Assembly: GCA_051362555.1 (NCBI GenBank)
Contig: CM120644.1
Coordinates: 13,228,567 to 13,292,566 of the forward strand
DNA from: Lingula anatina
Taxonomy: Eukaryota; Animalia; Brachiopoda
Direction of reading: 5' to 3'
DNA: 64,000 nucleotides
The first letter of the stretch is position 1; the number at the start of each line of letters is the position of its first letter. The notes beneath the pieces were generated by a model. The model ran no database searches, was not told the DNA's origin, and saw nothing but the letters and a program-made list of their open reading frames with translations. Positions 2,127-54,668 of the stretch are shown here, piece after piece. Position numbers and translations under genes: made by a program.

Positions 2127-3042
2127 TGTTTTTATTAATGGAAACTACTAGAAGCTTACTTGACAAACTACCTGTGAGTGCAACAAATTTTACAAGAAAT
2201 GTCAAGTTTTATTTTTCTTGTCTTTCAGATGTGATATGGTGCTTGTATCCCAGTCAAAATTTGGTCTGACTTCTCTAGCGAGTGAAACAACAGCGGTGAT
2301 ATGTTTTCCAGAGATCAACTACAACCTGCCTGATCTTTACGTTTATTTCTCTGGCTGACAGATTTGGAGTCTCCTAGGACAGCAGGGACTATCTAGCTAT
2401 CAGTTCAACTGACCAAACTCACTCTGAGCTCTTATACTAAGTTCTACTCCTTATATACTTATACACACAAAATACATTACAGTGAATCATTAACAGGATT
2501 GAGATATTGAAGCCAGTCAACAGAATTAAGACATATTACTAAGAACTCTATAATTAAACTCGGACTTCTTTAAACTTGGATGTAAATAAAGTTGTTGAAT
2601 CCTCTTAAAGATTAAAGCATCCTTTATAGCTTGGTTACTGTTCTTTCCAATGAATAAAATGCATAAGCAGATTCACGTTGTATCATTATATCAGAGACAT
2701 CTGAACAATCTTTACCAAATGTTGATTTAATTTGATTTAAATGTGCAAGTTTCTAAAATAAAATATTGAAAAATGTTTATGGTGTTTCTTACTGATATTC
2801 TGTGTGTGCTATTTTTTCATTCATTTGATAATTTTCTGTATGTGTTCTGCCAGCTGCACTATATGGCTAAAATACAGTAATAAAATTTTGCTACTCCATG
2901 ATTTCAAATATGGCATACATGATTGAGATTTAATTTAAAAAGAAAACTGGCATAAATAAAAGCATAATCACTGGGTTAAATATTAGTTGTCAGTCTACTG
3001 CAATAGTGGTACTGCAGAAGAATGTTTTTTCGATTTGTTTGT

Positions 3043-3073
<31 letters not shown>

Positions 3074-3074
3074 G

Positions 3075-3487
3075 TTCCGGAAAAATTCGCGAGAACAGTT
3101 CTGGAGATTTTGCAGCAAATTTGCAAGAAGGATTTCTTATGAGTTTGCAGAGCATTCGCAAGAACAGTTCTGAAGGGTTTGCAGCAAATTTGCAAGAACT
3201 TCTAGTGAATTTGCAGAAAATTCGCAAGAACAGTTCTGGAGAGTTTGCAGCAAATTCGCAAGAACTGTAGTGGAGAGTTTGCAGCAAATTCGCATGAATG
3301 GTTCTTGAGAGTTTGCAGCAAATTTGCAAGAAACCTGTGACAGATTCCCTTTTGTCATGCTGATTAAGTTTGTGGGGAGTTTGCAGCAAATTTGCAAGAG
3401 ACTTAATTTACATGGTAAATTTCCTCTTGCAAATTTGTTGCAAATTTGCAGCAACTGTTTGCAAGAAGCCTTAAATTTTGCTAAGGG
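3075..3487. mobile_element. Array of imperfect palindromic TTTGCAGCAAATT(T/C)GCAAG repeats ending in ...TTTTGCTAAGGG; probable end of a CMC/EnSpm-like DNA transposon
   Basis: About 10 degenerate copies of the motif are visible. The terminus reads CCCTTAGCAAAA on the minus strand. CCC termini plus dense subterminal repeats resemble animal EnSpm elements (family call is inference). Confidence 0.5.
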
Positions 3488-6400
3488 CAGGTGGCTTCAT
3501 GTTCAGTTCGTCGTATTCCTTGTCCGTAAGTTTGCATACAAACTTTTGTCTCTCTCTGTGGAAGAAGGGCGAATTAAAACACCGCCACATCAGCTTAAGC
3601 TCTTTATCCCGGTGACTAGAAATTACTTGGAACCAATCTTTGTTACGTGTGTGTTTTTTGGTCGTGATGATATCTTCCGTAGTTCTGTCCGTGGTCAAAT
3701 CGTCAATGAAGTTCGGTAGTTTTTCATAAAAGTCCATCTTGTTCCTGTAAAATGAAAATTAAAAGCAATTTGCGTCAATTCACACACGGAATCACGGCAC
3801 ATATACCTGCAAACAGTATAGTTCTTAATATTCCGGTACAATGTATATTCTGGTACATGTACACTTCAATTTACCAAAATGTCCACATACTTCGATTGAA
3901 TTTCCTCGCACCATGGAACATATTGTACATTACTGATATTAAAGTGCCGAATAACACTCTTTATCGCACTGCATTTCTAAATGAACACATTCAGGAGAGG
4001 ACAGCCAACTACGGCGGCATCGGTACGCACATAAACTGGTGGATCTGGAATTTTGTTTAAAGGGGTGGGGGTCCGAATAAAATATTTGACATCCCTGGGC
4101 TTATATATGAAAGCATGGCACACGAATGGATTTTTTTTTTCTCTCGTTTAGGTCTTTATATCATTTTTGGTCGAAAGAAGAAGAGCGTTCCACAGCAGAA
4201 CAGAGCTGACCTCTGGCTCTACAATAGGATTCCATGCGTTCTGTTGCCACCAATCACGTACTCGTAACTTATCTTACTTTCCAATCACGTGGTCCACAAT
4301 GCCCAACTCTTGCGCATGCTCAGCAAGGATAGGCTCTGGGTTAGAATACATTATTTCATCTGCCTTTTCTTTACCAACTCTCTTCGGGAAGAAGTATGTC
4401 CAGTATTCCGAGCCATACAAGTTCATGTTTTGATAAGAAGGAGTCAGCAGTACACCCTGAAGATAAAAAATAAACGAATTCATTGGCAGAAAGTTGCAAG
4501 ACATGCCAGCCACCTGGTGACCGTCAGCCAAAGCATCAACACCTACCGTTCAGGTCGCCATCGATATATACTGAAAGAGCAGATATACGCCGCATTCCAT
4601 AGTTTATAATATTGGCATTACCATATATAATCGTTAGTTCATTGTCAGAAAAAGTCGTTTAAGCACAACAATTCTAACTAAGTGAAAATGAAAAGTAAAA
4701 ACTGATCCCAGTACCACGATAAACAAAAGCTAAAACATGTAATAATAAATAAATAAATAAATAAATAATCAATAAGGAAAATACATTAGCAAGAAAACAA
4801 TGACAAAAGACATAAAATCAATAAGCAGAGGAACAGTTCAATGATAACAGAACGAAATGTTGCAATGCTAAAGCCACCTTTTAAAACAATAATATTACTG
4901 AGTATTATACATACTGGATGTGATACGACAATGTCGGCCGCTGCCGCAAGCATCGCTCCCCCGGCCCCAGCGTTCCCCTGAAGAGCAGCAACCACCAACT
5001 TATCAGTCATCTTGCTCATTTCCAGTATGACGTCGTCGATTTTATTTATATTATGCCAAGCTTCCAATACTGGGTCGCTGCTGGCTTCAATCCGACAGAG
5101 ATGGATTCCTGATTTTACAAAAATTCAATATTGTAAACTCCAAAAAACATGTTTCATTTCTATTTTTTCTTGTCGGTTTTCAGTTCATTTCTGATCTGGT
5201 TTATTTAGATCAGTTTTAAGCTTGTTTGAGGATTTAAGCCCAAGCACTTCCTTTAAAAATATCCTCACACTATTGCAATTCATTATTCCTATAATACTTT
5301 AATAGCTTTAATAGTTTAAGTGAAAATTGCCGTTGTTTTTTATAATCAAATATAACGAATGTACCGAGTACTTATACAGGAAATACAGTAAAAAAATTCT
5401 CAGGCAGAATTGTTTGAACATCTGTATATCGAGATCCCACCTGTCGAAAAGAAACGCTCTCCGCCCATCAACACAACAACGCGGACGTGGCTCATCTTGG
5501 CAACTTGACTAAGGACCTCTTTCAAATGATCCGCTTGGTTGCAGTCCATGGCACCATTGTAAAAATCAAAGTGAACGTAGCACACTTGTCCGGAATGTCT
5601 CAACCAAACTTGGCTATATGAAGACAAACTGCCTAAATCTGCAATCTCTGAGGCCAGCGTTGGTGAAATTGCAGACACTGCTGGCAGTTTGATGGACAAC
5701 TTCTTTTTGTTCTTGAAAGCAAGTAGAAATCTATGCAAAAGCTTTCAGTTTATTAGAAAAATGCTTATTAAACGGACCCCTCCAATTTTCAAAGCAGGAA
5801 GACTAATACATTACATGCGATTCTCATCTAAAAGAGTGATAATAAAAAACATTCTGAGATCCACCAAGGGATTCCTATTGTAGAACGAACTGCAAATTGA
5901 CACCGGCCGACATTACATTTTCCCACTTGAATTTCTTTAATACACGCTTTGAAATATCCTGGATAAGGCAGTGAAAGATGAAGTTGTCATTACTGCATTC
6001 CTCCTGATGCGACAGATGAGACAAAAAAGTCTTGAAAATAATAAAAACACTCTCACCTTCAGGCAAGTTATCCATACTCCCCCATTGTCTCCGCTTTTAA
6101 CCAAAAGTGCCCCCTGCTTCTTTCCAATTACGGAACCAGGTTTGTAGGCACTCAACATTTGTCCCAAAACTCCACTACGGTCTTGCTCTATGAGGGCACC
6201 GTATACCCTATACGTTTCGGTTAGCTGTATGTTGTTGTCCAGAAATGTGATATTAGCAAGGGCGCCTGGCTGTGTATCGGAACTTCGAATGATTCGGCAT
6301 ATATCTTCAGCTGAAGCAGACCAGTCGATCTCCCTGTCGGACTTTTTCATTGAGGGCAACAGGCAGCCTTTTATTTCTGATCGATTGTAATCAAGTGGCG

Positions 6401-7361
6401 TTGGCGTCACTCCAAGTTGATACCTGTGAATAAGATTAAATGGTATATATTAATGAATTAACGCAACGCACTTTAAAACAGTCTACAGAGATTAAAAAGG
6501 AGCTACCTGGTTCCTATGGAGAAGACAACAATTATTATTATTATTATTATCATTATTATTTATTAATTAAATGATTAACCTACAATTATTCATTCAAACA
6601 AAGTGCAGTCTAATTGAAGTGAAATACCTCGTAAGCCCGTCAACGACCAGCTCGGCCGCCAAGTCACTGATTTCCCCACCGTACACTCCTGTTTTCGTGG
6701 CGTTTGCTTTTAATGGAAATGTCCCCGTGCTCCAGATGTCGCCTCCGTCCATAACCGGGCTAGCTTGCAGCAGCGTCGCACCCCATTCCCTCTTTGCTTG
6801 CCGTATCGCCCAATCGATGGAATTAGGTCCCCGGTCACCTGCAATACCAGGATGAAAAACCAAACATGGCCGCTCGGTCGTCTTCCAAATTGTTTCTGGG
6901 ATGTATTTTGTAAGGTACGGGCAGATGATGACGTCGGGTTGGTAAAGTGTTACCGCATTTTCCATGGCACTTCCACTATCACATGGTACGGCATGAGTAA
7001 TCACCTGGGTGATAAATATGAATAAATTAATACGCTTTTAGTACCACATGCACAATGTAGGGAAGACCGGGGCTAGTTGGACCCCGGGTTAAGTTGGCCC
7101 CCCATCAATTTATGACAAAGTAACTGTGGGGTAAAAGAATTGATCACATCATTGTTGTCCATGTTTTTAGGCTATTAGGGCCTATATGGGGCGAGTAAAT
7201 CCCGAAATATGGAATCGAGACGATTGCGCTCGGTCGTAATGCTCGATGCTTTCGAGTTACGAGGTCCAGGACAGCCAACTACCGTTGCATCGGTATGTGC
7301 AGACTGGTGGATCCAAAATAGGGGGTAGAGCAAGAATATACAGAAAGCTTTTACCTCCTTG

Positions 7362-7445
<84 letters not shown>

Positions 7446-8834
7446 CAGAGCACACGACTGGAACATATTTGATTTTCTCTCGTTAAGTTGTTTATATTAT
7501 TATTTTTTTCATGTGTGGGAAGAGCTAGATTACCACAGCAGGAAAAAAAAGGATCTCTGGCTCTACAATTAATGGATTACATCGTAGCCTCTAATCACAT
7601 GTAAGATAACTTTCAAATCACATAAATGTACGTCGATTCATATGCCCCGACGACATAATAACCTTGATTATATCAACAGTGGGCTGTGGAAACATGGACA
7701 ACAACACGGTGCCCTACTGAACTAGTTAAAGACCTCAACTAGCTACCTGTAGGTCAGGCGTATCAGCGACCGTTGCAGTGACTAGACACTGACATGAGGG
7801 TCTTTTGTGAGGCGTGTAACTATTTTACAGACGATAATTTGGAAAATATGGAGATCCTAAATGTCGCTTTTAATTGTTGTCATATGACTTAGAATGGGCA
7901 ATGTATTTTTGTTTGAATTGCGAACTCAATTAATGAACTGCATGATGTCAGAATGCCATCAAAGATATTATGAACAGTTTTTAAAACACGATTTTAATTC
8001 TCACTTTCATTGACCAGTCAGTAAAATAGGAAAAAAACTGATGAAAATGATTTGGAAAAAAATATTCCATATTAAATGTTAAGTCTGCATGTTCAGACTG
8101 GTGAATTCAGAATTTGGTCAAGAGGAAAGGGCTAGAATAAAAGATTTTACCTCTGTCGGCAAATATATCAAATATATGAAAGCAGGGCACACTACTTGTA
8201 TTAGAACATGTTTAATTTTGTCTCGTTCAGTTGTTTATATTACTATTTTTTAGGAGGGACAATATAAGAGAAAGGATCACTAGCTCTACAATGGATGCAC
8301 ATTGTTGCCCCCTATCACATGTAACTTGGCTTACTTTCCAATCACGTACATGTACGTCGATTTACATGCCCCAGTACAAAATCACGGGTTAGAATACTAT
8401 CAACAGTGGGCTGTGGCAAACATGGACAACAACACAGTGACCTACTGAACTATAAAGACCTCAATGGAAGCTGTGCCATTAAAATGTGTAAACAGGCCCA
8501 CATTAACTGATAGAACACAAAAGAGGCATTATACCTATACCTATGAATGCTATATATAATTGAAAACTATGATATAATGTTAATTGTGACACTACCGACT
8601 TTTCACCTATATATGTGGACTATTTGGGTAAAAAAGAAGCCTCAATCAATACAATCACGTTGGTTGTATCGATATCGATACTTGCAGAATGTCACTTACC
8701 TTCATTCTTTGTAAGGTCATTTTAACTCTATTGGTCAAGCTGTTAACAGCATTCGAGACGAGTAAAATACGGAGTCCTTCCAGTAAAGACGGGTTTCTTG
8801 CTACCTGACCTGGCATAGGCAAATACGGCGGCAT
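3471..8834 (-). CDS. hypX: HypX/HoxX-like protein, copy A (formyltransferase + enoyl-CoA hydratase/crotonase fusion), ~598 aa, 7 coding exons
   Basis: Exons (minus): 8700-8834, 6628-7004, 6057-6423, 5441-5711, 4915-5108, 4278-4456, 3471-3744. All junctions are GT-AG and phase-compatible; total 1797 nt open. Motifs: LRILLVSNAVNSLTNR, FHPGIAGDRGPNSIDWAI, MDGGDIW, IRSSDTQPG, FDFYNGAMD, FFSTGIHL, GNAGAGG, PSYQNMNLYGSEYWTY, FHRERQKFVCK, matching the bacterial HypX architecture. Confidence 0.93.
7365..7443. repeat. (TA)n microsatellite (others at ~2083-2123 and ~13176-13206)
   Basis: Direct observation. Confidence 0.95.
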
Positions 8835-9999
8835 AGTTGAATGTCTTTTTCTTTCTGTCTAGCTATCCACGAACAACTAATAAGGCAAAACAAAATAACG
8901 ATATGAAACAATATTAAATAATATATTTTCAAATCGTAGGTATTTAGCACGCGATAGTAAATTACCCGCTAGCTGCTCGAGGAGGGGTGTCAGACAATTA
9001 AGCTGATTCCACTGATTGCACTTAAGCGAGAACCCCCCGCAGAGTTGGACCGACCCAGCAAGTACGGCGTGTGAACCTGATCGCGGTCTTAAACCAAAGA
9101 CTTGCATAACACCTGTGTGCGACCTTGCGTGAAGTCTGGGACACGACTCTTCTTGACCGGACTTAAGGCACGACCGCACGCTGATATTGGGCAGTCAGTT
9201 GTTAGCATTAAGAAATTATCTACTTATTTTCTATTCTGTGACAGCAATTCAGTGTATGAAATCAATGTACATCTTGGTTTGCCTGTATCATGAGATTTCT
9301 TCATTCAACTCTCGATACAATATCATCAATATCACGACTACGGACTAAGACTATGTCAAAATTTGGAAAAAAAATACCACGTGCGCAAGGTTTCGAGTGA
9401 GGTGCACGGCGACGCAAAACATTCTAGCCTTTTTTGCCCAGGTTGAATAAAAGGACGTAAAATCATTTTTACAAGTTTGGAGATCACAATATATTCATCC
9501 CATTTTAAACCGCAAACAATAGGAGTGACAAAGACGTGTGCTAAATATGACGGACTTATTAGAAACTATTATAAACCAAATGCCGATTCGCGTCCCACGA
9601 AATTTACATACGTACCCTGAATAACCTAGTTGATGTAGTTGCACTGCCGCTTGTCTTCTCCTTTTTTAATACTTAAATAATATTTTACTGCTTATCGGAA
9701 TAATTAATTAATTAATTAATTAAGCACCGAGTTCGGTATATGTGTATATGTGTCGATCACACAAATGTGAGTATAGCTGGGCTCTTCTATAGCGCCGGTT
9801 TGTACTTGACATTATGCAAATGAAAAAAATTATATAACAGATTCTATATCTAGCCTTCATCGGTCCACCAGCAAAATGGTGTCAACCACATTCAGTGTGA
9901 GTGTACTGGCCAGGCAAACTACCATTACGTAAGAAAAATTGAATAACAAGAAGTTTGCATGTCGCATTATTTATATAGACAGCCTAAAGAGAAATTTAA

Positions 10000-10198
10000 G
10001 ACCCCGTTTCCATAGATTTTAGATCGATCTATCCCTGTGGGGAGTCTCACTTAAGCGTCTGTCCCGCCTACTGAGCTGTAAGGGGGTAATTAACTATGGT
10101 GCGCGCTCGGCTGACTGCAATTTAGCGTGAACCCCCAGGGAGTTAGGTCGATCTAAATCTTAATCTCTGGATCGATCTAAATCTGTGGGAATGCACCC
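10000..10198. mobile_element. PIF/Harbinger-like MITE
   Basis: Imperfect TIRs GACCCCGTTTCCATAGATTTTAGATCGATC / GATCGATCTAAATCTGTGGGAATGCACCC, flanked by TAA on both sides. Related copies at ~27545-27733, ~50625-50838 and 63413-63628. Confidence 0.7.
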
Positions 10199-10824
10199 TA
10201 AGTGGCACAGTTTACAGTTTGGTCTCATTGAGGCTTGTAGGTGAGGAGCTTGGTCCGTGTATTGGGGGGTGGGGGTGGGAGAGGTGGGGAGGGGGTGGAG
10301 GGGCAGAGTGGTTGCCATTTCGCCAGAATATGAAAAACGACCGATTTGTCCTTTTCTGGCGAAATAGAAATCGCTTTGTCTGCCCACCCCCCACCCCCAA
10401 CCATAATACACTGACCGAGCCTGACCCTGTAGTCACCACGCTAGCCTGCCCCCATACCTACAGTTGTATGTATTTGGTGCAAGCTGACAGAGAACTTGGT
10501 ATAAAAACAGAATCAATTTAGCCGTTCGATTTGAAAATGCTTTATTTTGTGTTATTTCATTACCGTATTTTGTCTTAGGTTATCCGCCTCTAACCGTCTT
10601 GAACATTGTAGTTCGGAAATGCATATGTGGTGAATTTTAAACAGGGGAATGTGTTTTGTGTTTTTGCCCCATAACAACCTGTACACGCGAAGGGCACTTT
10701 GTGTAAGATTTAAACTTGGTAGAACTTTTTGGAACAGCAAGTCCTCGTGTGATGCTTGCCACGTGGTAAAGTGGAATGTTGTGAACGGAGTACAGGTATT
10801 TTCCTAATGATATACATGTATAAT

Positions 10825-11045
10825 ACCCCCTTTACACTGGACGGCGTCCTTTCTGCGTCCTTTCTGCGACCATAAATTTGGCATCTCTGTGGTCTTAATA
10901 AGGAGGCACGAGCATTGATTTTGTATCAGAATGAATGCTCAATGATCGGCAAGTTGTCGGGATGTAAAGTATTATAATTTCTTTAACTCTCAAATGGGGC
11001 CGTACTGCTGGACGCAGAAAGGACGCCGTCCAGTGTAAAGGGGGC
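10825..11045. mobile_element. MITE with ~35-bp TIRs (Harbinger-like)
   Basis: CCCCCTTTACACTGGACGGCGTCCTTTCTGCGTCC ... GGACGCAGAAAGGACGCCGTCCAGTGTAAAGGGGG is a perfect inverted repeat. Confidence 0.8.
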
Positions 11046-11089
11046 TTACTGCTGTACTTGTCCATCATGCCCCATCATATCCAGTACAG

Positions 11090-11242
11090 CAGGGGAGGAT
11101 TCAGAGATAATTTCTGACAGTCTTCCAGATCCATCCATTTTTGACCGTCTTCCGACAGAGAAAAATTAGATACCCGTCAATTTTAACTTGAAAATCTGAC
11201 CGTCTTCCGGAAGATCCAGAAGACGGCTTCAATCCACCCCTG
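11090..11242. mobile_element. ~155-bp interspersed element with CAGGGG(A/C)GGAT...ATCC(A/G)CCCCTG termini (hAT-like MITE family)
   Basis: Homologous copies at 30823-30983 (inverted) and ~40727-40881; partial copies at ~33425-33482 and ~49510-49569. They share TCTGACCGTCTTC and GAAGACGGC cores. Confidence 0.7.
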
Positions 11243-11913
11243 TGTATGATACACTAACATGAGTTATTAGTGACAATATCAGATTTCTCCCGTTTGATTG
11301 CAAATGTAGTGCCTTGTGCAACTGGAATATTTATGTGCTATCTGTTCATGTTGAAATCAACGATAGGGGGCCTTTATCTATCGCTCTACTATGTAAAAGA
11401 CCAATCAAATCAAATTACAATAAGATATGGTAATTTTTAAAAACATGAAAGTAGGTAAGATATGATTGCAAATTTTATTAAGTAGAGTTAAATACTTCAG
11501 GATGGCTCTCACAGCAGCACTTTCAGCATATTCCAAGAGGGAACTACACGTATTTGCTGTAATAATTATATTTTATTATATATTTTTATAACTTCCTTCA
11601 ATAAATACCCTTCAATAGTCATTGATTCACCGCTTACCACGTATGTAAATATCAAGATATAAACAAAAAAGAAACAAAGTAAATTCCATGAAAACCGTTC
11701 TCCAATTGTAATGAAGGTAAGCAAAAATATATAAGCTGTTAGTCTTTTTGTTGTTGTCATGACAATGGACACTACTAGTATTTCCCCAGTATAACAGTTA
11801 TCACAAAAATTCGCAAAAGTCACAATAAAAGTTTGAAATTTGAAAGATTTTACTTCTCTGTGCGGAAAGAAATTGTCCTGACCCGTCCCTGCATCACGCG
11901 AGATTATGCGAGA

Positions 11914-13172
11914 CTATGAGTGAACAAATGCTTCCTTGCCGCTTCCTTGAATTTCCCTGAACAAACGTGGCTTCATGTTCAGTTCGTCGTATTCCTTGTC
12001 AGTAAGTTTGCATACAAACTTTTGTCTCTCTCTGTGGAAGAAAGCCGAATTAAAACATTGCCACATCAACTTAAGCTCTTTATCCCGGTGGCTGGAAAGA
12101 ACTCGGAACCACTCTTCGTTACGTGTGCGTTTTTTGGCCGTGATCATTTCTCCCGTAGCTTTGTCCCTGGCTAAATCGTCAATGAAGTTCGGGAGCTTTT
12201 CATAAAAGTCCATCTTGTTCCTGTAAAATGAAAATAAAATGTCAATTTATACACTGTACATATAGAGCTGTACACATATACACTATACATGTACATGTAT
12301 ACACTACTTCTTATACCGGTACATATTGTACATTGTACATATACACTCAACTGTACCACAATGAGTCACCAAATGTCCAATTCTACTAGATCTCTTGCCT
12401 CTCCTCACATCATGAAACATATTGTGATATTGTCATAATAAACTCCATTTGTAATAGAACACATTTACATTTACCTAAGAGAGGACAGCCAACTACGGTT
12501 ACGATATGCATATACATATACCAGTAGATTGGTGGCTACAAAGTTTTGTTAAGGGGGTGGAGGCAAGAAAAAGGTTTTACCTCCCTTGGCAAAAAAAAAT
12601 AATAATAATAATAATAAAATAAAATAAAATGCAGAGCACACAACTGGGAATAGCTTTGTATATTAATATGGTGGAAAGAAGAGAGTACCACAGCAGGAAA
12701 GAGAGGATCGCAGAAAAGAAAGGAAAGCAACAATGGACAAATATGTGCACTGATGCCACCAATCACATGTAACATGTCTTACTTTCCAATCACGTTGTCC
12801 ACAATGCCCAAATCTTGCGCATGCTCAGCGAGGATAGGCTCTGGGTGCGAATACATTATTTCATCTGCCTTTTCTTTACCAACTCTCTTCGGGAAGAAGT
12901 ATGTCCAGTATTCCGAGCCATATAAGCTCATGTTTTGATAAGAAGGAGTCAGCAGTACACCCTAAAGATAAAAAACATACACAATAATCATTTGGCAAAA
13001 AGGTGTGCACAGGATATGCCAGCCACCACGATAAAAAACTAAAACAATAAATAAATAAATGAACCAGTCAATAAATAAATAAAAAGAACAATACATTAAA
13101 GGCAAATAAATTCAAAAGGCATAAAGCCAATAAATAGAGGAATATGATAACAAATATGTTGCAATGCTAAAA

Positions 13173-13209
<37 letters not shown>

Positions 13210-16200
13210 AATAGTATTATTATACATACTGGATGTGACACGACAACGTCGGCCGCTGCCGCAAGCATCGCTCCCCCGGCCCCAGCGTTCCCCTGAAGAG
13301 CAGCAACCACCAACTTATCAGTCATCTTGCTCATTTCCAGGATGACATCATCGATTTTATTTATATTATGCCAGGCTTCCAATACTGGGTCGCTGCTAGC
13401 TTCTATATGGCAGAGATGGATTCCTGATTTTACAAAAATATTATATTTTAAAAAATTTTTGAGAAACATCTTTTTCTATCTTGTCAGTTTTAAGTACATT
13501 TTTAATCTAGTTAATTAAGTTTAGTTTTAAGCTGATAAGAATGAAGTAATTTTTCTTTAGTCAACAGCTTTATATTGAAATAGTTTTAAAGTACTGCTAG
13601 ACATCGAGATATTGAAGGTAAAATTATTGAGCTGTTGACTGAAGAAAAATTATTTCATTCTTATAACATAACACAGCTTATGAAATTATTCTCTGAGTTT
13701 TAAGCTTGTTTCAAAAATTAACCCTAGGCACTTTCTTTAAAATATATCTACTCATTATTGCTAAACATCATTTCTTAAATAGTTTCAATAGGTTTAGTGA
13801 TAAAATGTCGTTGTTTTATAAAAACAATTAAAAAGCAAATATATATTATACCGGAAGTATAGTAAAACTTTTTTCAGCCAGAATTGTTTGAACATCTGTG
13901 TACATCAAGATCTCACCTGTCGAAAAGAAACGCTCTCCGCCCATCAACACAACAACTCGGATGTGGCTCATCTTGGCAACTTGACTGAGGACCTCTTTCA
14001 AATGATCCGCTTGGTTGCAGTCCATGGCACCATTGTAAAAATCAAAGTGAACGTAGCACACTTGTTCGGAATGGCTCAACCAAACTTGACTATATGAAGA
14101 CAAATTGCTCAAATCTGCAATTCCCGAGGCTAGCGTTGGTGAAACTGCAGACACTGCTGGTAGCTTGACAGACAACTTCTTTTTGTCCTTGAAAAACATT
14201 GGATATATCTTTTCTTTCCGACGAATATTATTTATTTTTTCACTTTACATCTTAAATACAGCAAATAAAATTAAATAAAGCAGAATTAAATTTGTTTTAC
14301 GTTTTATTTTGGTCTGATGACATTCAACTGCATTTTCACTGCGGAGCAGTTCTATTTGATTGATGGAAAACTTTCATGGCCGCTGGTCTTCAGAGTTAGT
14401 AAAAGCGACTCCACCACAAGATTTATTTAGCAAGCTAGCTTTTACGTTGCTCTGACGCTCAGGGTAGGTATTAGAAAAAAGCTCATCAAATGAGCCCCTC
14501 TAATTTTCAAAGCAGAGGGGCTAATCGCGCTCGGCTGTCACCTTGATTGGATAGTAAACGGTTGTCGTAAAATCGCTAAATAATATTAAAACCGGGTGCA
14601 TAAACTAGAAAACCACCTAGGACAACCTTAGACTGCCACATTAATCCAATACAATGCAAAAATAAACTATAACAAGTGGTTAAAGCCTTCAAACCGAATG
14701 TCGTAAATCCCCATATACCTCCATAGAGACAATAAAATAGAGTCAGCTTGTGAAACAAAAATAAACCAACTTAAACATAATAATCGAAATAAAATACTGC
14801 CGGGCATCGGAGCGGCCTAAAACTTGGCACGCTTACCGCAAATACTACAGGCTACATCATCCCGCCGCTCGTTTGTAAATTCCGTGCATGGCATACGCTC
14901 AATCAAACCGTATATCCAAATTGCACCTCTGATGTTTAAATTGGTCCTCTCTAACCTACCATTACGAAAAAGAAGCCATGCCATTGGACAATGCGACCTC
15001 TGCGGTTACGTCATTTCCTGAATTGGATTGTAGAGAGGACTTTACGACATTCGGTTTGAAGGCTTTAACCACTTGTTATAGTTTATTTTTGCATTGTATT
15101 GGATTAATGTGGCAGTCTAAGGTTGTCCTAGGTGGTTTTCAAGTTTATGCACCGGGTTTTAATATCATTTAGCGATTTTACGACAACCGTTTACTATCCA
15201 ATCAAGGTGACAGCCGAGCGTGGGGCTAATTAAACATGTTACTCACTCTAGAAGAGAGAGGAGAAACATTCTGAGATCCACAAAAGCATACTTTCTGTAG
15301 TAAACACTCGTCACCTGTCAACTACTATTCACGAATGTCTCCTGATGCGACAGTTGAGACAAATAAAAAATAGGTTTGGAAAAATGAAAAGAAAACACAC
15401 TCACCTTCAGGCAAGTTATCCAAACTCCCCGATTGTCTCCGCTTTTAACCAAAATGGACCCTTGCTTCTTTCCAACTACAGAGCCAGGTTTGTGGGCACT
15501 CAGCATTTGTCCCAAAACTCCGCCACGGTCTTGCTCTATGTGGGCACCGTATACCCTATACGTTTCGGTTAGCTCTGTTTTGTTGTCGAGAAATGTGATA
15601 TCAGCAAGGGCGCCTGGCTGTGTATCGGAACTGCGAATGATTCGGCATATATCTTCAGCTGAAGCAGACCAGTCGATCTCCCTGTCGGACTTTTTCATTG
15701 AGGGCAACAGGCAGCCTTTTATTTCTGATCGATTGTAATCAAGTGGTGTTGGCGTCACCCCAAGTTGATACCTTGTGGACATGATGGAATGGTATATAAT
15801 TGAATTAAAACGCAACGTGTTACCGCACTTTAAAACAGTCGACAGAGACTAAAAAGGAGCTACATGCTTCCTCTGGGGAAGACAACCATTATTATTATTA
15901 TTTATTTATTTATTATTTAATTAATTAACCTGCAATTAATCACTGAAACAAAGTGCAGTCTAATTGAATTGAAATACCTCGTAAGCCCGTCAACGACCAG
16001 CTCAGCGGCCAAGTCACTGATTTCCCCACCGTACACTCCTGTTTTCGTGGCGTTTGCTTTTAATGGGAATGTCGCCGTACTCCAGATGTCGCCTCCGTCC
16101 ATAACCGGGCTAGCTTGCAGCAGCGTCGCACCCCATTCCTTCTTGTCTTGTCGTATGGCCCAATCAATGGAATTAGGTCCCCGGTCACCTGCAATACCCG

Positions 16201-17859
16201 GATGAAAAACCAAACATGGCCGCTCGGTCGTCTTCCAAATTGTTTCTGGGATGTATTTTGTAAGGTATGGGCAGATGATGACGTCGGGTTGGTAAAGTGT
16301 TACCGCATTTTCCATGCCACTTCCACTATCACACGGTACGACATGAGTAATAACCTGGATGATAAATAGGAATAAAAATGCATACTATTACTAGCAGTCA
16401 CGTATACGCAAATAAAGGGCGCTATCCTTAGATGGATATAGAAAAACACTTTTAAGCGGTTCCCCGTGGTGTTGGAGTATGATCATGATATTTTCTTCCC
16501 AAACAGTTCTCAAAATCCTCTAGCATTCGCTTTGTGAGTTTTCTTCTTTTTTAATATTTCACGGAGACCACCAGGTTTTCCTGTACGTTTCAGAAGGAAA
16601 TATCGATACCTGGCATTTCTGAATGTGTTTTTATCGTATCTAAAGTCAGAATTGGTAAAGACTACTAGTTTGTGTTGAATATGTATAAATAGAAAAATAT
16701 TGCGGATAGCATATCTGTGAAAACCCCTCCAGATGTAGTATTTTTAAGTATGTGCTTTTTTATTTCAATTATATGGAAATTTTAAGACTCACTGGATGCT
16801 TTATTCCCTTTTTACTTTTTTTTACACATTTATATCTGTTAATGTGTTCTCCCCATTTCATTTACCGGCAATTTTGCACTCAGTGATACCTCAATGCGGC
16901 AATAAAGACATGTATATGTATATCAAAATCTGAAGGTATTTTAAGGCTGATTTTAACCATGGGTAGCTACATGTACATGTATTACAGGGCATTAATTCGT
17001 TTATGCTACCAACAATTCATTTCATATTTCCCAGTTCTCACTAATGAACTTATATCATACTTTGTGATCGTTTATGATTATGATTTGGTAGTCCGAGGAT
17101 ATTTTTAAATATATATTTAAAATATACATAATAAGTCATTTAAACGCACTCGAAAAGTTATTCAGTTTTTCAAAGTACTCAGTGCCCATGTGGTATGAAT
17201 GTCTCTGAAGATCTGATAGTTCTCAGTTTTATACGGTATATTTTTTAGTTGGACGCAGAGCATAAGGCACTTTTATTTACCTCAGGTAGTAGATGATGTG
17301 TTTTGTGATCATTGGAGATTAAAATGGCAATAAAAAATTTAGAGTTGGGATTTAATAGTTTAAAGAAAATGGCAATATATGCTTTCGTTCATAAAACTAA
17401 GAAAAACATGTGGGAAGTTTAACAGCGTGAATATACATGACAAACTGACTTTAAAAACCAACACCAAAAACTACACCAATTCATGATCAGTTGTTTACGC
17501 CATAAACATAAAAACAGTGTGCAGCCCAGTGTTATAAAAGGCGAGAAACCCGGAAGATTTGTTAAAATAAGTTAACCCGTTGACAAGCTGTCGTGATGTT
17601 TTTCTATTTATTTATTTATTATTATCATTCTAAAAAAAACAGGGCTCAGTTTTAGAAAGGACGTTATGCACTAACCATACAAAAGCCAAACCAGTGGATA
17701 AATTCTCTAAACACCTGCTCCCCACACCCTTCTGGATCCACCACTGGCAAATCATAAGGCAAAACCTTTATTTTTCTATTTGCATTTCTTTATTTAAAGT
17801 TTTAAAATTATATTACCATTAATATTTTTATTATTTAATTTCATTTTTTCTATTTTATT

Positions 17860-17894
<35 letters not shown>

Positions 17895-20069
17895 TTATTT
17901 TTTAATTATTTATTTTATTTTATGTATTTATTTTTTTATTATTTATTTATTTATTTATTTTTTTTTTTGAGGGAGGCTTTTAATATAACCGGCTGTCTGC
18001 ACGCAAGACAAGATTAAGATCAGGAACCAACATGCCCTCTACCAACTTGCAGATAGAAGGCTGCAGAGAGAAATGTAAACAACATATACACTTTAAGTGA
18101 GAACAACACTCCATGTGAGACTCAAAAATTCACAATTAATACACAGTTAACAGCCCATAGAAATATAAGTAATTCCATTTTAACGTCCAAGCTAAGGTTA
18201 TCGACACTGTTTTCTAAAATCTGAGCTTGCCATCACGTGGCATGTGAACTATTCACTGTATGAACTACACGTTTGCCAAATTAGCGATCTGGAAACAGCC
18301 GTTTCATGCGTTTGTACAGTGTACAAATGCCATCAAAATTATGTCTTTTAGGTCATCATAGCTCTCAAATGTTTGTTTTTAAAGTCAAAGCATTACTTTT
18401 GTGTCCGTTCTGTAATAAATTGAACAAAGAAAGATTCAATCACTCTGCAATTATCGTAAGCAAACACATCCAGGACGCGGCTATTTTAGCAACACACTGT
18501 ACTACAAGTCAGGTCAGGTCACCCACCTGTTACTAGTACAGATGTACCCAGTAAAGCAGTATAACCTGTTAAATGGTCAAGATGTGGGCGAGTAAACGGT
18601 CAACACCACCCTCCTCTCTGTAGGTAAGTGTGGAGGGTGGTTAGACACCCTATGAAACGAAAAATAAAATCCATCTCTCTCTTTCTAGATAAAGCCAATT
18701 AACGGATTTCCAGCAACGCCGCAAGATAGAGTGGTGCCCGTGGGGTTAATCAGCCAAAAACAAACAACTCATCGTTACGATGTTGATGGTCGACTATTAT
18801 TTGATTGATTGGTTGATTGTACATATTTTTTCAGGACACGTGTCCCCGAATCTCACGTCGTCAGGTGACCTCTGTAGAAAAACATGCCGAAATTCGCCTG
18901 TGCCACAAATTTATATGGCCCCATAAACTGTCAGAGCACAAAGGTGGCATTGTACTAATGTTCATGAAATTCAATGCTGTTTAATTGAAAACAATAGTTG
19001 GTGGTATGAATATTATAGATGGCCAACCTCCGTAAACAGGGGCGAATCCAGGATTATCTGAAGGGGGTCCATTTTTTTTCTTTTTAGCAGTTTAGCACTA
19101 TGATTCACCTATTCAAAATTCTAATATCAAGAGGGGAATATTGGTGTGATTTTTTTCCAGAAACCGAAGGGGTGGTCAGTGCCCCCCCCTGTCACCCCCC
19201 TTAATCCGCCACTGCTTAAATATCTCTTAATAGATTGTTACAAAAACACATTCGACTAAATTTTAATGTCTAAACGGATTCATTAGGCCTTAGTAAGTAC
19301 GGGTAACCGACGTTTGCCCCAGGAAATATCCGTTAATGGCACTTTTCGGCCAAAATGAAGAGTTTAAGGGGACACATTGACCTAGCTCGAAACCCACAAA
19401 GCAAGTTACGGGACAGTGAAAAAAGGAAAGAGCACGTGGCATGTGGCATGTGATCGGTGGATTGTTTGAATATTACTCTTGCCAAATAAGCGGTCTGTCG
19501 TTGCGACAGAGAAAAAAATCCCATCAAAATCATGTATGTTAAGTCATCATAGCTCTCAAATGTTTGTTTTGAACGTCGAATCATTACTTTGGTGTCCCTT
19601 CTAAGATAAATTTAAGCAAATTAAGATTCATTTTATTCTGCAGTTATCATAAACATACATTTCTTGGTCGCGGCTACTTTAGAAAATTGTGCACTTGGGC
19701 CTGAACTTAGATCGACTACCTTTAGAAACGTGCTAAAATTCGGCTGTGCCACGAAATTATATAAATAAATAAACTGTCAGAAGGCTACTCAGCTGAAAAA
19801 GAACATCAAGCAATAATTAGCTTTATGGATATAATATTCTGATGACGCCCTTGTTCATTTTAATGAAAAAATAAATTAAAACTCCTCAAGCAAAACATAT
19901 ATGCCTTGGTTGTGTCGACACTTGCTTTACTTACCTTCATTCTTTGTAAGGTCATCTTAACTCTATTGGTCAAGCTGTTAACAGCATTCGAGACGAGTAA
20001 AACACGGAGTCCTTCCAGTAAAGACGGGTTTCTTGCTACCTGACCCGGCATGGGCAAATACGGCGGCAT
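11914..20069 (-). CDS. hypX: HypX/HoxX-like protein, copy B, ~609 aa, 7 coding exons
   Basis: Exons (minus): 19935-20069, 15978-16354, 15405-15771, 13917-14187, 13230-13423, 12783-12961, 11914-12220. Exons 1-6 have the same lengths as copy A (135/377/367/271/194/179 nt). GT-AG junctions; 1830 nt open; same catalytic motifs. Confidence 0.93.
13534..13695. mobile_element. Hairpin-containing ~160-bp insertion in hypX-B intron 4
   Basis: Flanked by the direct repeat AGTTTTAAGCT (13523-13533, 13696-13706). A single empty site lies in copy A at ~5212. A related copy lies at ~34511-34652. Confidence 0.7.
14526..15222. mobile_element. Non-autonomous DNA transposon with ~180-bp TIRs and an 8-bp TSD, in hypX-B intron 3
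   Basis: 14526-~14707 is the near-perfect reverse complement of ~15041-15222. TSD GGGCTAAT at 14518-14525 and 15223-15230. Absent at the corresponding position in copy A (~5801). Confidence 0.88.
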
Positions 20070-28265: not shown

Positions 28266-28946
28266 TCAGTTATCACTCATCCACGCCATCACCATAAACC
28301 TCCCGTTTTTAGCGCCCTCTACTTCCGCTTTGTGGTGAGACGGGTAATCCTCGGACTCGTATGTACACACGGACGACAACTGAAGGTGTTCTTTCTTGAT
28401 GCCGATCTTACAAAGCTGGGATGCATTATAACCTACGAAGTCTATACCCATTGGCCCATCTCTCCCCCTCAAGCGGACGTAGTTTTCTTTATCCGTGCTT
28501 TCTACATCGAAGGCTCCCTGAAGATGTGGTCGCCAGTCCTCTACATCGTCACGCGGAACGTCGAGATAATCCATTCGGTAATGTTCGGCACATATAGCGG
28601 GGGCTTGGATAATCCGAACATCGCCGACGTATTGTTCGAGAGAACAGCCGTTGTAGGAGGCCATTACCTCAACGGTCTTCACGGCTACTTTCCTAATAGA
28701 TCCTTCCCGTCCCGAGTGAGCGAGGCCCACGGTGCCTGAGGGGCCGTGGAAGAAGATATACATGGCGCAGTCGCCTGGGTCGCATTCAAGTCCAATATTC
28801 AGGAGTTTGGTAACCAAGGCGTCGCCAACGGGACCGCCCATTAACTTATTTTCCCATTGCGCGCGGTTTCCCCCCGTAATCACGTGAACTTCGTTGCCAT
28901 GGACAGCACGCATGCGCACAAAGTTTTTCAGGCCGCGACTGGACAT
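28266..28946 (-). CDS. yfiH: YfiH/PgeF/LACC1(FAMIN)-family protein (Cu-oxidase_4/DUF152; purine nucleoside phosphorylase-like), at least 226 aa on one exon
   Basis: Motifs in family order: AVHGNEV (QVHG), GDALVT, PGDC (ADC), GLAHSGREG (HAGWRG), APAIC (GPAI), IDF..YN..QL...GI, CTYESEDYPSHH (CT...FFSHR), GRF. The His-Cys-His triad is present. First ATG at 28946. A CAG acceptor at 28959-28957 suggests a possible upstream exon. The symbol denotes the family, not proven orthology. Confidence 0.85.
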   Translation of the reverse strand: MSSRGLKNFVRMRAVHGNEVHVITGGNRAQWENKLMGGPVGDALVTKLLNIGLECDPGDCAMYIFFHGPSGTVGLAHSGREGSIRKVAVKTVEVMASYNGCSLEQYVGDVRIIQAPAICAEHYRMDYLDVPRDDVEDWRPHLQGAFDVESTDKENYVRLRGRDGPMGIDFVGYNASQLCKIGIKKEHLQLSSVCTYESEDYPSHHKAEVEGAKNGRFMVMAWMSDN

Positions 28947-29291
28947 CAATTTGGTTCTGAATATGAGAAAGTGTTTATTTGAAGTGCTAGGAAGTGACCA
29001 ACCTACTCGCTCGAAAGAATGTTTCGAAAAATAGAAAAAAACATGTACCTAAGCAATATTTGAAAAAAAAATGTGTATATGAACTGAAATAAGAACAAAG
29101 TGCTAATGTGGAAATAAAGAGAAGTATTAATAGCTTGAATGAGTTAATTCATACTTTTAAATGATAAGGTGGCACTATAGACAGCTTAATATACCGCCAG
29201 GCAGAGTAGCACGCACAATCGCACATATTGCATAAAAAAAAGATAAAACAATTGATTCAATTACTGATTATCTGACCGGTGATTCATTAAA

Positions 29292-37022: not shown

Positions 37023-37724
37023 CTAAGTGAGAATCGTAGACAGGCACGCCAGTAGGATACAAGGGAAAAACGCCAAAGACGTCACCGACGTAGCACCATT
37101 CACGTCGCCGACAGTGGTGCTACTGGTGACAGTGGTGCTGACGGTAGAGGTCGACCTTGTCGTGGAGGTCGTCGTCGGTACCGTAGTCGTCCTTGCTGAC
37201 GTCAGACCTGTCGCCTCGAAGCATTTTCTCTCCATGGTGTTCCAGACTTGGTTCATTTCGAGTCGTACGTACTCGTGCTGGCTGCACTTCGTCAGCAGGT
37301 CAGCCACACAGTCTCTGTACTGACACGGGTCATTGTTTCTGTTGTATGGAGTGGTGCACTGGGCGACTAGATTTATGGTACAGTCTTCGGCTGGAAAAGG
37401 AAATTAAGAACGTGAATTCTGTGGAAACTTGGTAATTAACCTGAAAACTGCCCCCCTAAAAAATAAATAAATAAATAAAATAAAATAACATAACATAAAT
37501 AAGGGAACTTCAAAATGGTGCAACTATAATCACCATTAGGTTCCTCCTCTCTCTCTTTATATTTGTTCGTTTATTTTTAACACTACACTGCACTTAATAT
37601 AAACTGAGTCACCATTCCTATATTTGTTATATAACATCACCACCTGCCTGCAATGCTTACCCGACAGCAGTTCAGCGAAACTCCCTCTCAAAATGGCGAC
37701 AAACACTACTCCTGTTATTAACAG
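37023..37724 (-). CDS. Small secreted 6-Cys-domain protein with a Thr-rich stalk and a putative GPI-anchor signal (start-codon exon not located)
   Basis: Exon 37661-37724 encodes signal-like LLITGVVFVAILRGSFAELLS, followed by a phase-1 GTAAG donor. Exon 37023-37390 encodes AEDCTINLVAQCTTPYNRNNDPCQYRDCVADLLTKCSQHEYVRLEMNQVWNTMERKCF...TTTVPTTTSTT...NGATSVTSLAFFPCILLACLSTILT*. Confidence 0.8.
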
Positions 37725-54000: not shown

Positions 54001-54226
54001 CGGCATGCCGTAGATCTAAATTCGTTGTATTTTGTGGCAAAGCAAGAAATGAATCGGCGATCGAGCTACCTGAGCAATTCACAATTAACTGCTTTTCCGG
54101 AATATATTGACACCGACAAAGTGATGGGCACGTATTCAGCGTTTGGTTCACAGTCGCAGCCAAAGTGTTGCTCAAGCTCCACCAAAGTCCCACAAGGAAC
54201 AGAGTTGTTTTTTTCACTGCCTGCAT
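51054..54226 (-). CDS. TLR: Toll-like receptor, copy 1, intact, ~898 aa (signal peptide, LRRNT, LRRs, LRRCT, TM, TIR)
   Basis: Exons 52050-54226 and 51054-51573 (phase 2, GTGAGT/TTTTAG). Motifs CPSLCRC, LxxLDLSxN repeats, NNPVDCASC, TM LSLGISLTITASVTCGVVLAYIY, and TIR VYLSY..., ERDFIGG, SRKTVLVLSENF..SWCEFE, FWKRL. Confidence 0.95.
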
Positions 54227-54421
54227 TGTCGTGGTGTCCCTTTCACTTTAAGGAATCGACTCTAATTGATAATTTAGTCGTAACCTCCCTTTGCTTCGAT
54301 CTACATATATAATTTCTTACATTTGTAAAAATACATCTCTACATTTTCGACAGATAAAACATCTCAGACGCACATGAAGAATGCGGAACCCTAGACGCAT
54401 GAGAACCTTTTAATTTACAAA

Positions 54422-54668
54422 TTTTATAGTCGCAAAATTTCCGTTGAGTCACTTCCTTATCCATTATAAAAATATCGTAAAATTCGTGGTATAATGACAC
54501 TACCAGAATACTCTTTATTGTGTCTAGGAACGTCTTCTTTTTGTGTATCTTGTTGACAAGTATAGAAAAGAAAGCATTATGTGACCTTGTCAGATGTTTG
54601 AAAGAGCTTTGCGTAAACCTTTGTGTGACTGCTTATTTCCTCGGGGCTAACAAACCTGGGGAATTCCC
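54422..54668 (-). promoter_or_regulatory. Putative TLR copy-1 promoter: TATA (54422-54428), AP-1/ETS composite TGAGTCACTTCCT (54445-54457), NF-kB site GGGGAATTCCC (54658-54668)
   Basis: Consensus matches, conserved in the same order upstream of copy 2 (60005-60017, 60207-60217) and the diverged copy 3 (63170-63182, 63384-63394). Confidence 0.65.

What the first reader, a model, noticed from the sequence alone, without database searches (positions are those of the whole stretch)
3471..20069. Intact, spliced, duplicated HypX (bacterial CO-synthesising hydrogenase maturase) in an animal genome: candidate heme-independent carbon monoxide pathway
Seen: two full-length genes with six GT-AG introns each in the coding region, encoding a formyltransferase-crotonase fusion. 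The N-domain His and Asp of FHPGIAGD and the Asp of MDGG are retained. So are the C-domain Tyr and Glu of SYQNM(N/S)LYGSEYWTY, though the Tyr-Glu spacing looks one residue shorter than I recall for bacterial HypX. Known: bacterial HypX transfers the formyl group of N10-formyl-THF to bound CoA and decarbonylates formyl-CoA to CO, supplying the Fe-CO ligand of [NiFe]-hydrogenases under aerobic conditions. Animals are not known to have [NiFe]-hydrogenases, and their main recognised enzymatic CO source is heme oxygenase. No hyp/hox partner gene is visible here. Inference: a domesticated, probably horizontally acquired HypX has been repurposed, either to release CO from one-carbon folate metabolism (gasotransmitter, antimicrobial, symbiont feeding) or to dispose of formyl groups. 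Automated HoxX-like annotations may already exist in other eukaryotes, so the gene's presence may not be new, but I know of no described function in animals.
Basis: partly seen in the sequence, partly recalled or inferred. Interest (0 to 1): 0.9.

Follow-up and report, generated by a model that had tools for sequence, protein, structure and literature searches.

The report
Animal copies of bacterial CO-making enzyme
This brachiopod (lamp shell) DNA carries two intact, intron-split copies of HypX, the enzyme bacteria use to make carbon monoxide from a folate-bound one-carbon unit; they belong to an old family shared with many other invertebrates, so these animals likely have an unstudied, heme-independent way of making CO.

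Summary
Observation confirmed. Two tandem minus-strand genes, each with seven coding exons and six GT-AG introns, give stop-free proteins of 598 and 609 aa (dN/dS 0.22). Gene B equals a Lingula anatina RefSeq protein; spliced reads support two of its introns, while expression of gene A was not shown. Both match Aquifex HypX over the full length (gene B: E 2.5e-99; model Z 42, rmsd 2.0 A) and keep all five proposed catalytic residues. The shorter Tyr-Glu loop also occurs in bacterial HypX.

Recent horizontal transfer is not supported: the genes nest in a well-supported animal clade (bivalves, annelid, nemertean, amphioxus, sea cucumber, Trichoplax) within a wider eukaryotic group. Many relatives are already auto-labelled 'HoxX-like'. 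My ten literature searches found no paper on their function.

Best reading (0.6): a hydrogenase-free formyl-THF decarbonylase that releases CO as a signal or metabolic modulator. Indirect support: 7 of 80 bacterial hypX loci lie beside an MHYT (CO-sensor family) gene, and five of those seven genomes show no hydrogenase genes. Seven of 14 named animal proteins have mitochondrial-type presequences, but not Lingula's. CO release is untested.

The parts
8700..8834 (-). Gene A coding exon 1 (ATG, aa 1-45)
   Evidence: RNA reads laid here carry gene B's letters at 8768 and 8811
6628..7004 (-). Gene A exon 2: Formyl_trans_N with H96, D102, D131 (Aquifex H74, D80, D109)
6057..6423 (-). Gene A exon 3: Formyl_trans_C, T221/Q222 (Aquifex S194/Q195)
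5441..5711 (-). Gene A exon 4: linker and start of crotonase domain, FYNG with N345 (Aquifex N306)
4915..5108 (-). Gene A exon 5: crotonase domain, GNAGAGG
4278..4456 (-). Gene A exon 6: SYQNMNLYGSEYWTY with Y456/E465 (Aquifex Y416/E426)
3471..3744 (-). Gene A exon 7 to stop TAA
   Evidence: equals the end of RefSeq model P0043
19935..20069 (-). Gene B coding exon 1 (ATG); the strongest upstream acceptor (20111) is followed by an in-frame stop, so no longer N-terminus through it
15978..16354 (-). Gene B exon 2: Formyl_trans_N triad H96/D102/D131
15405..15771 (-). Gene B exon 3: Formyl_trans_C
13917..14187 (-). Gene B exon 4
   Evidence: intron 4 (493 nt) crossed by 3 reads in X7
13230..13423 (-). 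Gene B exon 5
12783..12961 (-). Gene B exon 6: SYQNMSLYGSEYWTY with Y456/E465
   Evidence: intron 6 (562 nt) crossed by 6 reads in X1
11914..12220 (-). Gene B exon 7 to stop TAG

Best explanation
These are two intact paralogs of an old eukaryotic branch of the HypX family that likely still turn N10-formyl-tetrahydrofolate into free carbon monoxide, with no hydrogenase partner seen nearby, so the CO would likely act as a diffusible signal or metabolic modulator. Inferred mechanism, by analogy to bacterial HypX: the N-terminal formyltransferase (H96/D102/D131) moves the formyl group from formyl-THF to a tightly held CoA; the CoA arm swings through the shared cavity; the crotonase domain (Y456/E465) decarbonylates formyl-CoA, releasing CO and regenerating THF. 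Shown: gene structure, purifying selection, low-level splicing of gene B, fold, residues, ancestry. Inferred: CoA binding, CO release, and what receives the CO. In many other animals the enzyme is probably mitochondrial; the Lingula proteins lack such a presequence and are probably cytosolic.
For: (1) Full-length match only to HypX: phmmer E 2.5e-99 against 1e-9 for the next family; Foldseek TM 0.83, prob 1.0; VIA Z 42, rmsd 2.0 A over 532 residues, next family Z 29 on one domain; model pLDDT 92. (2) All five residues proposed as catalytic in PMC6802093 are kept in both copies and in 90 of 90 aligned proteins, 29 of them named eukaryotes; CoA 3'-phosphate contacts are kept as T/Q/N. The decarbonylase half is as conserved as the transferase half, which a simple hydrolase would not need. 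(3) Selection: dN/dS 0.22 overall, 0.195 and 0.23 for the two halves. (4) HypX without hydrogenase already occurs in bacteria. Of 41 genomes searched for HypD, 14 had none, and 12 of those 14 had no NiFe large subunit either. (5) 7 of 80 bacterial loci have an MHYT gene directly adjacent on the same strand, in four separate clades and four phyla. In 5 of these 7 genomes it is the only MHYT gene found, in the other 2 one of two, and 5 of the 7 show neither HypD nor a NiFe large subunit. The MHYT domain of CoxC senses CO (PMC11347149, passages). (6) HypX is fused to FolD, which makes formyl-THF, at either end, in Macrostomum, Togula, Ktedonobacter and unnamed proteins and in Adineta by precomputed domains. 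This supports formyl-THF as the substrate. (7) Bacterial HypX was shown to release CO in vitro (as reviewed in PMC12134894, passages).
Against: No enzyme assay and no cavity measurement here. Residue conservation does not prove the product; crotonase folds are easily repurposed. The His before Y416 is Ser or Thr in Lingula, other lophotrochozoans and a plant/tardigrade clade. It was His or Tyr in the 61 bacterial loci read with Tyr in register, so the pocket has changed. Aquifex R9, Q15 and R131 are Ala, Asn and Gly, though PMC6802093 shows those contacts are dispensable for CoA binding. Y416 is itself not invariant: Thr in 12 of 32 readable hyp-context loci. No MHYT gene is in the window and no animal CO receiver was identified. 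MHYT domains also respond to NO and O2. The bacterial 'no hydrogenase' genomes are drafts or MAGs of unstated completeness. FolD fusions fit any formyl-THF-consuming reaction. Expression is low: exon bins about 0.2-1.5x from 1.3-1.8 Gb read per run, and at most 0.1x over gene A exons 2-5.
Confidence: 0.6

Rival explanations
1. Formyl-group disposal: the enzyme acts as a formyl-THF deformylase (PurU/ALDH1L-like role), hydrolysing the formyl-CoA intermediate to formate, or venting CO only as waste, to regenerate THF.
For: FolD fusions and mitochondrial-type presequences in 7 of 14 named animal proteins tie it to mitochondrial one-carbon flux, where formyl-THF is abundant (general knowledge). The crotonase superfamily includes thioester hydrolases (general knowledge). 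The pocket His is changed to Ser/Thr.
Against: Animals already have ALDH1L and MTHFD1L routes for this (general knowledge; not checked in this genome). The whole HypX decarbonylase motif is kept. Adjacency to MHYT genes in hydrogenase-free bacteria points to CO as the useful product.
Confidence: 0.2
2. The enzyme runs a different transfer: it salvages formyl-CoA (for example from alpha-oxidation or oxalate breakdown) onto THF, or formylates another acceptor.
For: The formyl-THF/CoA transfer step is chemically reversible (inference). Gene A ends in -SKI, a PTS1-like tripeptide.
Against: Only 1 of 53 C-termini checked is PTS1-like, and gene B's is not. In Aquifex, CoA is a tightly bound prosthetic group, not an exchanging substrate (PMC6802093), and the tethering residues are kept.
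Confidence: 0.1
3. CO is made as a ligand for a metal-carbonyl cofactor of an unknown animal protein, or is passed to a symbiont's hydrogenase or CO dehydrogenase.
For: This is the only proven use of HypX CO. The whole genome could not be searched for Hyp genes.
Against: 0 of 9 Hyp/hydrogenase queries hit the window. Animals are not known to encode [NiFe]-hydrogenases (general knowledge). The family spans free-living animals, mosses and protists.
Confidence: 0.05
4. The genes are a recent horizontal transfer, a contaminant, or decaying relics with no current function.
For: Patchy distribution; low expression; RefSeq truncates gene A, and no A-specific junction was seen. Tardigrade, gnat, rotifer and flatworm copies fall outside the main animal clade and may be separate acquisitions.
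Against: Six shared spliceosomal introns, dN/dS 0.22, spliced reads, Toll-like receptor genes in the same window, nesting with bivalves, and AU rejection of a bacterial grouping.
Confidence: 0.05

Closest known systems
HypX/HoxX, N10-formyl-THF decarbonylase (Aquifex aeolicus PDB 6J0P, 6J1E-6J1J; Cupriavidus necator; Rhizobium leguminosarum)
   Same: Three-part architecture, 33-37% identity, Z 42 / rmsd 2.0 A; H74, D80, D109, Y416, E426 and the CoA 3'-phosphate contacts are kept.
   Different: Intron-split animal genes; no hyp/hydrogenase gene in the window; one-residue shorter loop between Tyr and Glu (also common in bacteria); His415 to Ser; R9/Q15/R131 not kept; 20-residue N-terminal extension.
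Auto-annotated 'hydrogenase maturation factor HoxX-like' proteins of invertebrates, plants, protists and fungi
   Same: Same clade: 40-49% identity to bivalve, nemertean and Owenia proteins; amphioxus 37-40%; Trichoplax, Apostichopus; Atlas clusters with Cnidaria or Ascomycota commonest.
   Different: None in kind; this is one locus of that family. No functional study was found in my searches. Lingula lacks the presequence that half of the named animal members have.
ALDH1L1/L2 (10-formyl-THF dehydrogenase) hydrolase domain; methionyl-tRNA formyltransferase
   Same: N-terminal formyltransferase fold; ALDH1L also passes the formyl group to a phosphopantetheine arm (PMC6802093).
   Different: Only the N-half matches (E 1e-4 to 6e-9). 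No ACP or ALDH domain; Asp in place of the triad Ser; a crotonase domain follows.
Heme oxygenase (recalled: the main recognised enzymatic CO source in animals)
   Same: Proposed product (CO) only.
   Different: Unrelated fold and substrate; HypX needs no heme, O2 or reductant in the proposed scheme.

Membership tests
HypX/HoxX protein family | Formyl_trans_N + Formyl_trans_C + crotonase (ECH) domains in one chain | tested here: met
   (P0001: all three over cut-off); exon scans of gene A
HypX/HoxX protein family | Whole-chain sequence and fold closest to solved HypX | tested here: met
HypX/HoxX protein family | N-domain triad His74/Asp80/Asp109 | tested here: met
   H96/D102/D131 in both copies
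HypX/HoxX protein family | C-domain Tyr416/Glu426 | tested here: met
   Y456/E465, span 9 instead of 10; the short loop also occurs in 14 of 32 readable hyp-context bacterial loci, 2 of them with Tyr
HypX/HoxX protein family | CoA 3'-phosphate tethering residues S194/Q195/N306 | tested here: met
   T221/Q222/N345; sequence level only
HypX/HoxX protein family | Bound CoA and CO release from N10-formyl-THF | not testable with these tools
   needs purified enzyme
Aerobic [NiFe]-hydrogenase maturation system (hyp operon, HypCD scaffold) | hypA-F / hydrogenase genes in the same neighbourhood | tested here: not met
   0 of 9 Hyp/hydrogenase queries hit the 64-kb window; not filed under this system
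Aerobic [NiFe]-hydrogenase maturation system (hyp operon, HypCD scaffold) | HypCD and a [NiFe] large subunit elsewhere in the genome | not testable with these tools
   no whole genome is held for this window
ALDH1L (10-formyl-THF dehydrogenase) | ACP and aldehyde-dehydrogenase domains after the hydrolase domain | tested here: not met
   a crotonase domain follows instead

The most novel reading that the evidence does not exclude
Animals inherited a second, heme-independent enzymatic source of carbon monoxide: HypX converts folate one-carbon units into CO, ancestrally inside mitochondria, where it couples one-carbon flux to CO signalling or to control of respiration. The same source-plus-sensor logic is visible in bacterial hypX-MHYT gene pairs, so hydrogenase maturation would be only one use of a general CO synthase.
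Probability: 0.3. Interest if true: 0.9.

Novelty: new variant of a known kind. Interest (0 to 1): 0.66.

Why it matters
Heme oxygenase is the main recognised enzymatic source of CO in animals (recalled). A conserved HypX from Trichoplax to amphioxus, sea cucumber, bivalves and brachiopods would be a second route, fed by serine/glycine one-carbon metabolism rather than heme turnover, and probably mitochondrial in many lineages, next to the CO-sensitive cytochrome c oxidase. One recombinant-enzyme assay can test it. The locus itself is not unique: it is one member of a family that annotation pipelines already label 'HoxX-like', and other notes of this scan have flagged fungal and protist members. 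The interest lies in the unstudied function, not in a recent gene transfer.

Tried and rejected
Recent HGT or contamination: rejected. Short Tyr-Glu loop as a sign of lost activity: rejected, since it is the usual form in eukaryotes and common in bacteria. The two copies as alleles assembled in tandem: unlikely, as dS is 0.16, alignable intron parts are mostly 73-85% alike with large indels, and intron 1 does not align. Peroxisomal targeting: only gene A ends PTS1-like, 1 of 53. A hidden upstream exon giving gene B a mitochondrial presequence: the few candidates by a crude scan are not convincing; most overlap what looks like a LINE fragment near 22.8-23.4 kb; not excluded. A first exon 5 donor (4910/13225) broke the frame and was replaced by 4914/13229. 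The motif count used a faulty pattern and is replaced (7 of 80 loci unread there); only its hypX-MHYT gaps are used. The mixture-model tree and the 92-row bootstrap tree did not finish; I use the quick 92-row tree and the finished 45-row LG+G4 tree. Exon 7 and exon 1 alone have no Pfam match. NCBIfam gave no HypX-specific model among the 25 best families shown. No RNA holder was listed by index; raw-read runs of the same species label were laid instead (4 of 9 runs, 6-30% of each read). High read depth at 10.0-10.2, 10.8-11.05 and 14.5-15.2 kb comes from repeat elements, not these genes. No complex prediction was sent. PMC5187695 (Burstel 2016) is not held, and I did not try Schulz 2020.
Full report
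1. Observation. The window holds two tandem minus-strand genes. Gene A exons: 8834-8700, 7004-6628, 6423-6057, 5711-5441, 5108-4915, 4456-4278, 3744-3471 (598 aa). Gene B exons: 20069-19935, 16354-15978, 15771-15405, 14187-13917, 13423-13230, 12961-12783, 12220-11914 (609 aa). All twelve introns are GT-AG, at the same positions and phases, and there is no internal stop. Over 592 codons dS is 0.16, dN 0.036 and dN/dS 0.22 (Nei-Gojobori). Gene B's product is identical to P0001, named by its source as Lingula anatina LOC106164295, with four RefSeq accessions for the same protein. RefSeq's gene A model starts at Met196 and lacks the formyltransferase N-domain, although the DNA here allows a full-length frame. 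The window is animal DNA: Toll-like receptor LRR and TIR exons lie at 51-63 kb.

2. Expression. I laid 4 of 9 listed RNA runs on 2600-17000, reading 6-30% of each. Six reads in X1 cross B intron 6 and three in X7 cross B intron 4, both at the predicted ends. Three X7 reads join B exon 5 to A-like exon 6. Reads lying on A exon 1 carry gene B's letters at both listed positions, and two of four listed variants on B exon 2 equal gene A's letters. So B-type transcripts are made at low level, and some animals may carry mosaic alleles. Depth over A exons 2-5 is at most 0.1 in all four runs, so expression of A is not shown. The B exon 1-2 junction lay outside the stretch laid.

3. What the protein is. 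P0001 has Formyl_trans_N, Formyl_trans_C and ECH_1. Its only whole-length PDB match is Aquifex HypX (E 2.5e-99; next family 1e-9). The AlphaFold2 model (pLDDT 92, pTM 0.90) overlays HypX at TM 0.83 and Z 42, rmsd 2.0 A over 532 residues. PMC6802093 (I read parts 1-4 of 7: abstract, results, discussion, start of methods) names H74/D80/D109 and Y416/E426 as catalytic and S194/Q195/N306 as CoA tethers. Lingula has H96/D102/D131, Y456/E465 and T221/Q222/N345. The five catalytic positions are kept in 90 of 90 proteins that I picked for alignment from about 450 fetched. Exceptions exist outside that pick: His for Tyr in 1 of 46, and Thr for Tyr in 12 of 32 readable hyp-context loci. The one-residue shorter Tyr-Glu loop is present in all 29 named eukaryotic rows and 7 of 16 named bacterial rows, so it is not a lesion. 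Real differences from Aquifex are His415 to Ser, and R9/Q15/R131 to Ala/Asn/Gly; the paper shows the latter contacts are dispensable.

4. Distribution and ancestry. Named relatives occur in seven bivalve genera, a nemertean, Owenia and Branchiostoma, many already labelled 'hydrogenase maturation factor HoxX-like'. Others are in Apostichopus, Trichoplax, Macrostomum, Plasmodiophora and Togula, and Hypsibius, Bradysia, Adineta, Ceratodon, Chara and Calypogeia. Atlas clusters have Cnidaria or Ascomycota as commonest taxa. No vertebrate was named among the 120 best hits of either, which does not prove absence. In the finished 45-row tree (IQ-TREE LG+G4, midpoint root), Lingula A+B group with bivalves (100/98), then Owenia+Tubulanus (100/99), inside a 100/99 clade with Trichoplax, amphioxus, sea cucumber and five unnamed proteins. 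A 99/98 branch separates all named eukaryotes except Macrostomum from all 16 bacterial rows. The AU test rejects putting Lingula on the bacterial side (p 3e-5). Unnamed members of the animal clade are uninterrupted ORFs in gene-poor DNA (L081-L086: 0-20% of flank in ORFs, against 63-96% coverage in ten bacterial loci). Caveats: no mixture model, no true root, no named fungus in the tree, the order inside the animal clade is weakly supported, and the tardigrade, gnat, rotifer and flatworm copies fall outside it. The simplest reading is an old gene, inherited vertically in the main animal clade with many losses, duplicated locally in Lingula.

5. Is HypX useful without a hydrogenase? I fetched the best 80 of 601 bacterial matches from a partial GTDB scan; this is not a random sample. 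35 of 80 have hyp or hydrogenase genes within the fetched stretch. I searched 41 genomes behind 42 loci (41 of the 45 non-hyp loci plus L068; four loci on short contigs left out): 14 have no HypD, and 12 of those 14 have no NiFe large subunit. These are mostly drafts or MAGs, so absence is not certain. Seven of 80 loci have an MHYT-domain gene directly beside hypX on the same strand (gaps from an apparent overlap to 415 nt): Peribacillus, three Cellvibrionaceae, another gammaproteobacterium, Coleofasciculus and Actinocrispum. They fall in four separate clades. In 5 of the 7 genomes this is the only MHYT gene found, and in 2 one of two, so the pairing is not chance. Five of the 7 show neither HypD nor a large subunit. 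The MHYT domain of CoxC senses CO through copper; other MHYT proteins are linked to NO responses, and O2 competes (PMC11347149, passages; it does not mention HypX). HypX is also fused to FolD at either end in several lineages and once to hemerythrin. This is indirect evidence that HypX serves as a general CO source; it says nothing direct about animals, and no MHYT gene is in this window.

6. Location in the cell. By a rule of thumb of my own (extension of 25 residues or more; first 25 residues rich in Arg/Lys with at most one acidic residue; internal background 0-13%), 7 of 14 named main-clade animal proteins and 5 of 8 unnamed clade members look like mitochondrial precursors. None of 15 bacterial proteins has any extension. 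Lingula A and B and five bivalve proteins have only about 20 extra residues and fail the rule. The strongest acceptor upstream of each ATG is followed by an in-frame stop. The ancestral animal enzyme was probably mitochondrial and the Lingula form is probably cytosolic; no dedicated predictor was available.

7. Mechanism and rivals. Most likely (0.6): formyl-THF to enzyme-bound formyl-CoA to CO plus THF, as shown for bacterial HypX in vitro (reviewed in PMC12134894, passages), with CO as a diffusible signal or modulator. Rivals: formyl disposal to formate (0.2), another formyl transfer (0.1), ligand supply to an unknown carbonyl cofactor or symbiont (0.05), recent transfer or relic (0.05). Gene structure, selection, fold, residues, ancestry and low-level splicing of B are shown; CoA binding, CO release and the receiver are inferred.

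8. Known or new. It is a member of the HypX protein family on every feature testable here, but not of the hydrogenase-maturation system as far as the window shows. Ten full-text searches (seen as listings with abstract starts) gave no paper on eukaryotic HypX; the phrase 'hydrogenase maturation factor HoxX' had 0 hits. The library lacks most subscription papers. Burstel 2016 was not held and Schulz 2020 was not read; they or their supplements may mention eukaryotic homologs. Earlier AI notes of this scan flagged fungal and Plasmodiophora members and the bacterial MHYT pairing. I had found the pairing before seeing that note, and these notes are not independent evidence.

9. Verdict. Real feature, correctly described. 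Not a recent horizontal acquisition and not unique to this genome, but one locus of an overlooked, conserved animal enzyme family with a plausible and cheaply testable claim: a heme-independent CO source. Novelty: new variant of a known kind. Interest 0.66; boldest reading probability 0.3, interest 0.9 if true.

Noticed in passing
L001, L009, L016, L018, L029, L048, L080 (gene beside hypX): hypX directly adjacent to an MHYT-domain gene in four bacterial phyla, mostly the genome's only MHYT gene and mostly with no hydrogenase genes found: a candidate CO source-sensor pair. L089 also holds an MHYT ORF.
   Followed up: yes
L050, L053, L057, L059, L061, L066 (about 9800-12000, +): In six Solirubrobacterales loci hypX abuts a GGDEF-EAL gene whose N-terminal membrane domain is His-rich, has no Pfam match and is not MHYT; possibly another gas or metal sensor. 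These genomes do have HypD elsewhere.
   Followed up: partly
P0296, P0442, P0257, P0116, P0213, P0254, L091, L097: HypX-FolD fusions in both orientations across flatworm, rotifer, dinoflagellate, Chloroflexi and unnamed proteins; P0170 is a HypX-hemerythrin fusion.
   Followed up: partly
L010, L014, L015, L017, L025, L026, L030, L031, L041, L055, L063, L074: HypX in hyp operons, mostly Bacteroidota, has Thr in place of the supposedly essential Tyr416 (PHT instead of PHY).
   Followed up: no
L008, L024, L035, L036, L052 (gene after hypX): In Nonomuraea hypX is followed by an HTH + EPSP-synthase-family gene, away from the hyp cluster.
   Followed up: no
window 28269-29048 (-): Uninterrupted 260-codon ORF of the Cu-oxidase_4 (YfiH/LACC1/FAMIN, purine nucleoside phosphorylase) family, E 5e-26, about 8 kb upstream of gene B.
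   Followed up: partly
window 51054-62853 (-): Tandem Toll-like receptor genes: two near-identical 733-codon LRR exons with TIR exons, and a third, frameshifted LRR copy; one TIR exon is split across frames at about 57.0 kb.
   Followed up: partly
window 14528-15220, 10826-11044, 10018-10157: Elements with terminal inverted repeats (191 nt at 96%; 35 nt at 100%; 37 nt at 73%), MITE-like, in B intron 3 and between the genes; they attract most RNA reads from other loci.
   Followed up: partly
window 4455/13229 and 16074-16184; runs X7, X9: Reads joining B exon 5 to A-like exon 6, and A-type letters on B exon 2, suggest mosaic alleles or gene conversion in other individuals. A further read class links 11617 and 3523 with 34 foreign letters between (15 and 27 reads); unexplained.
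   Followed up: partly
window 3040-3470: Array of short degenerate repeats (ttgcagcaaatttgcaaga-like) directly downstream of gene A's stop codon.
   Followed up: no
window 37023-37403 (-) and 48454-49241 (+): Short Cys-rich exons with Thr-rich, hydrophobic C-termini that look like small secreted or GPI-anchored proteins; no Pfam match for the two scanned.
   Followed up: no
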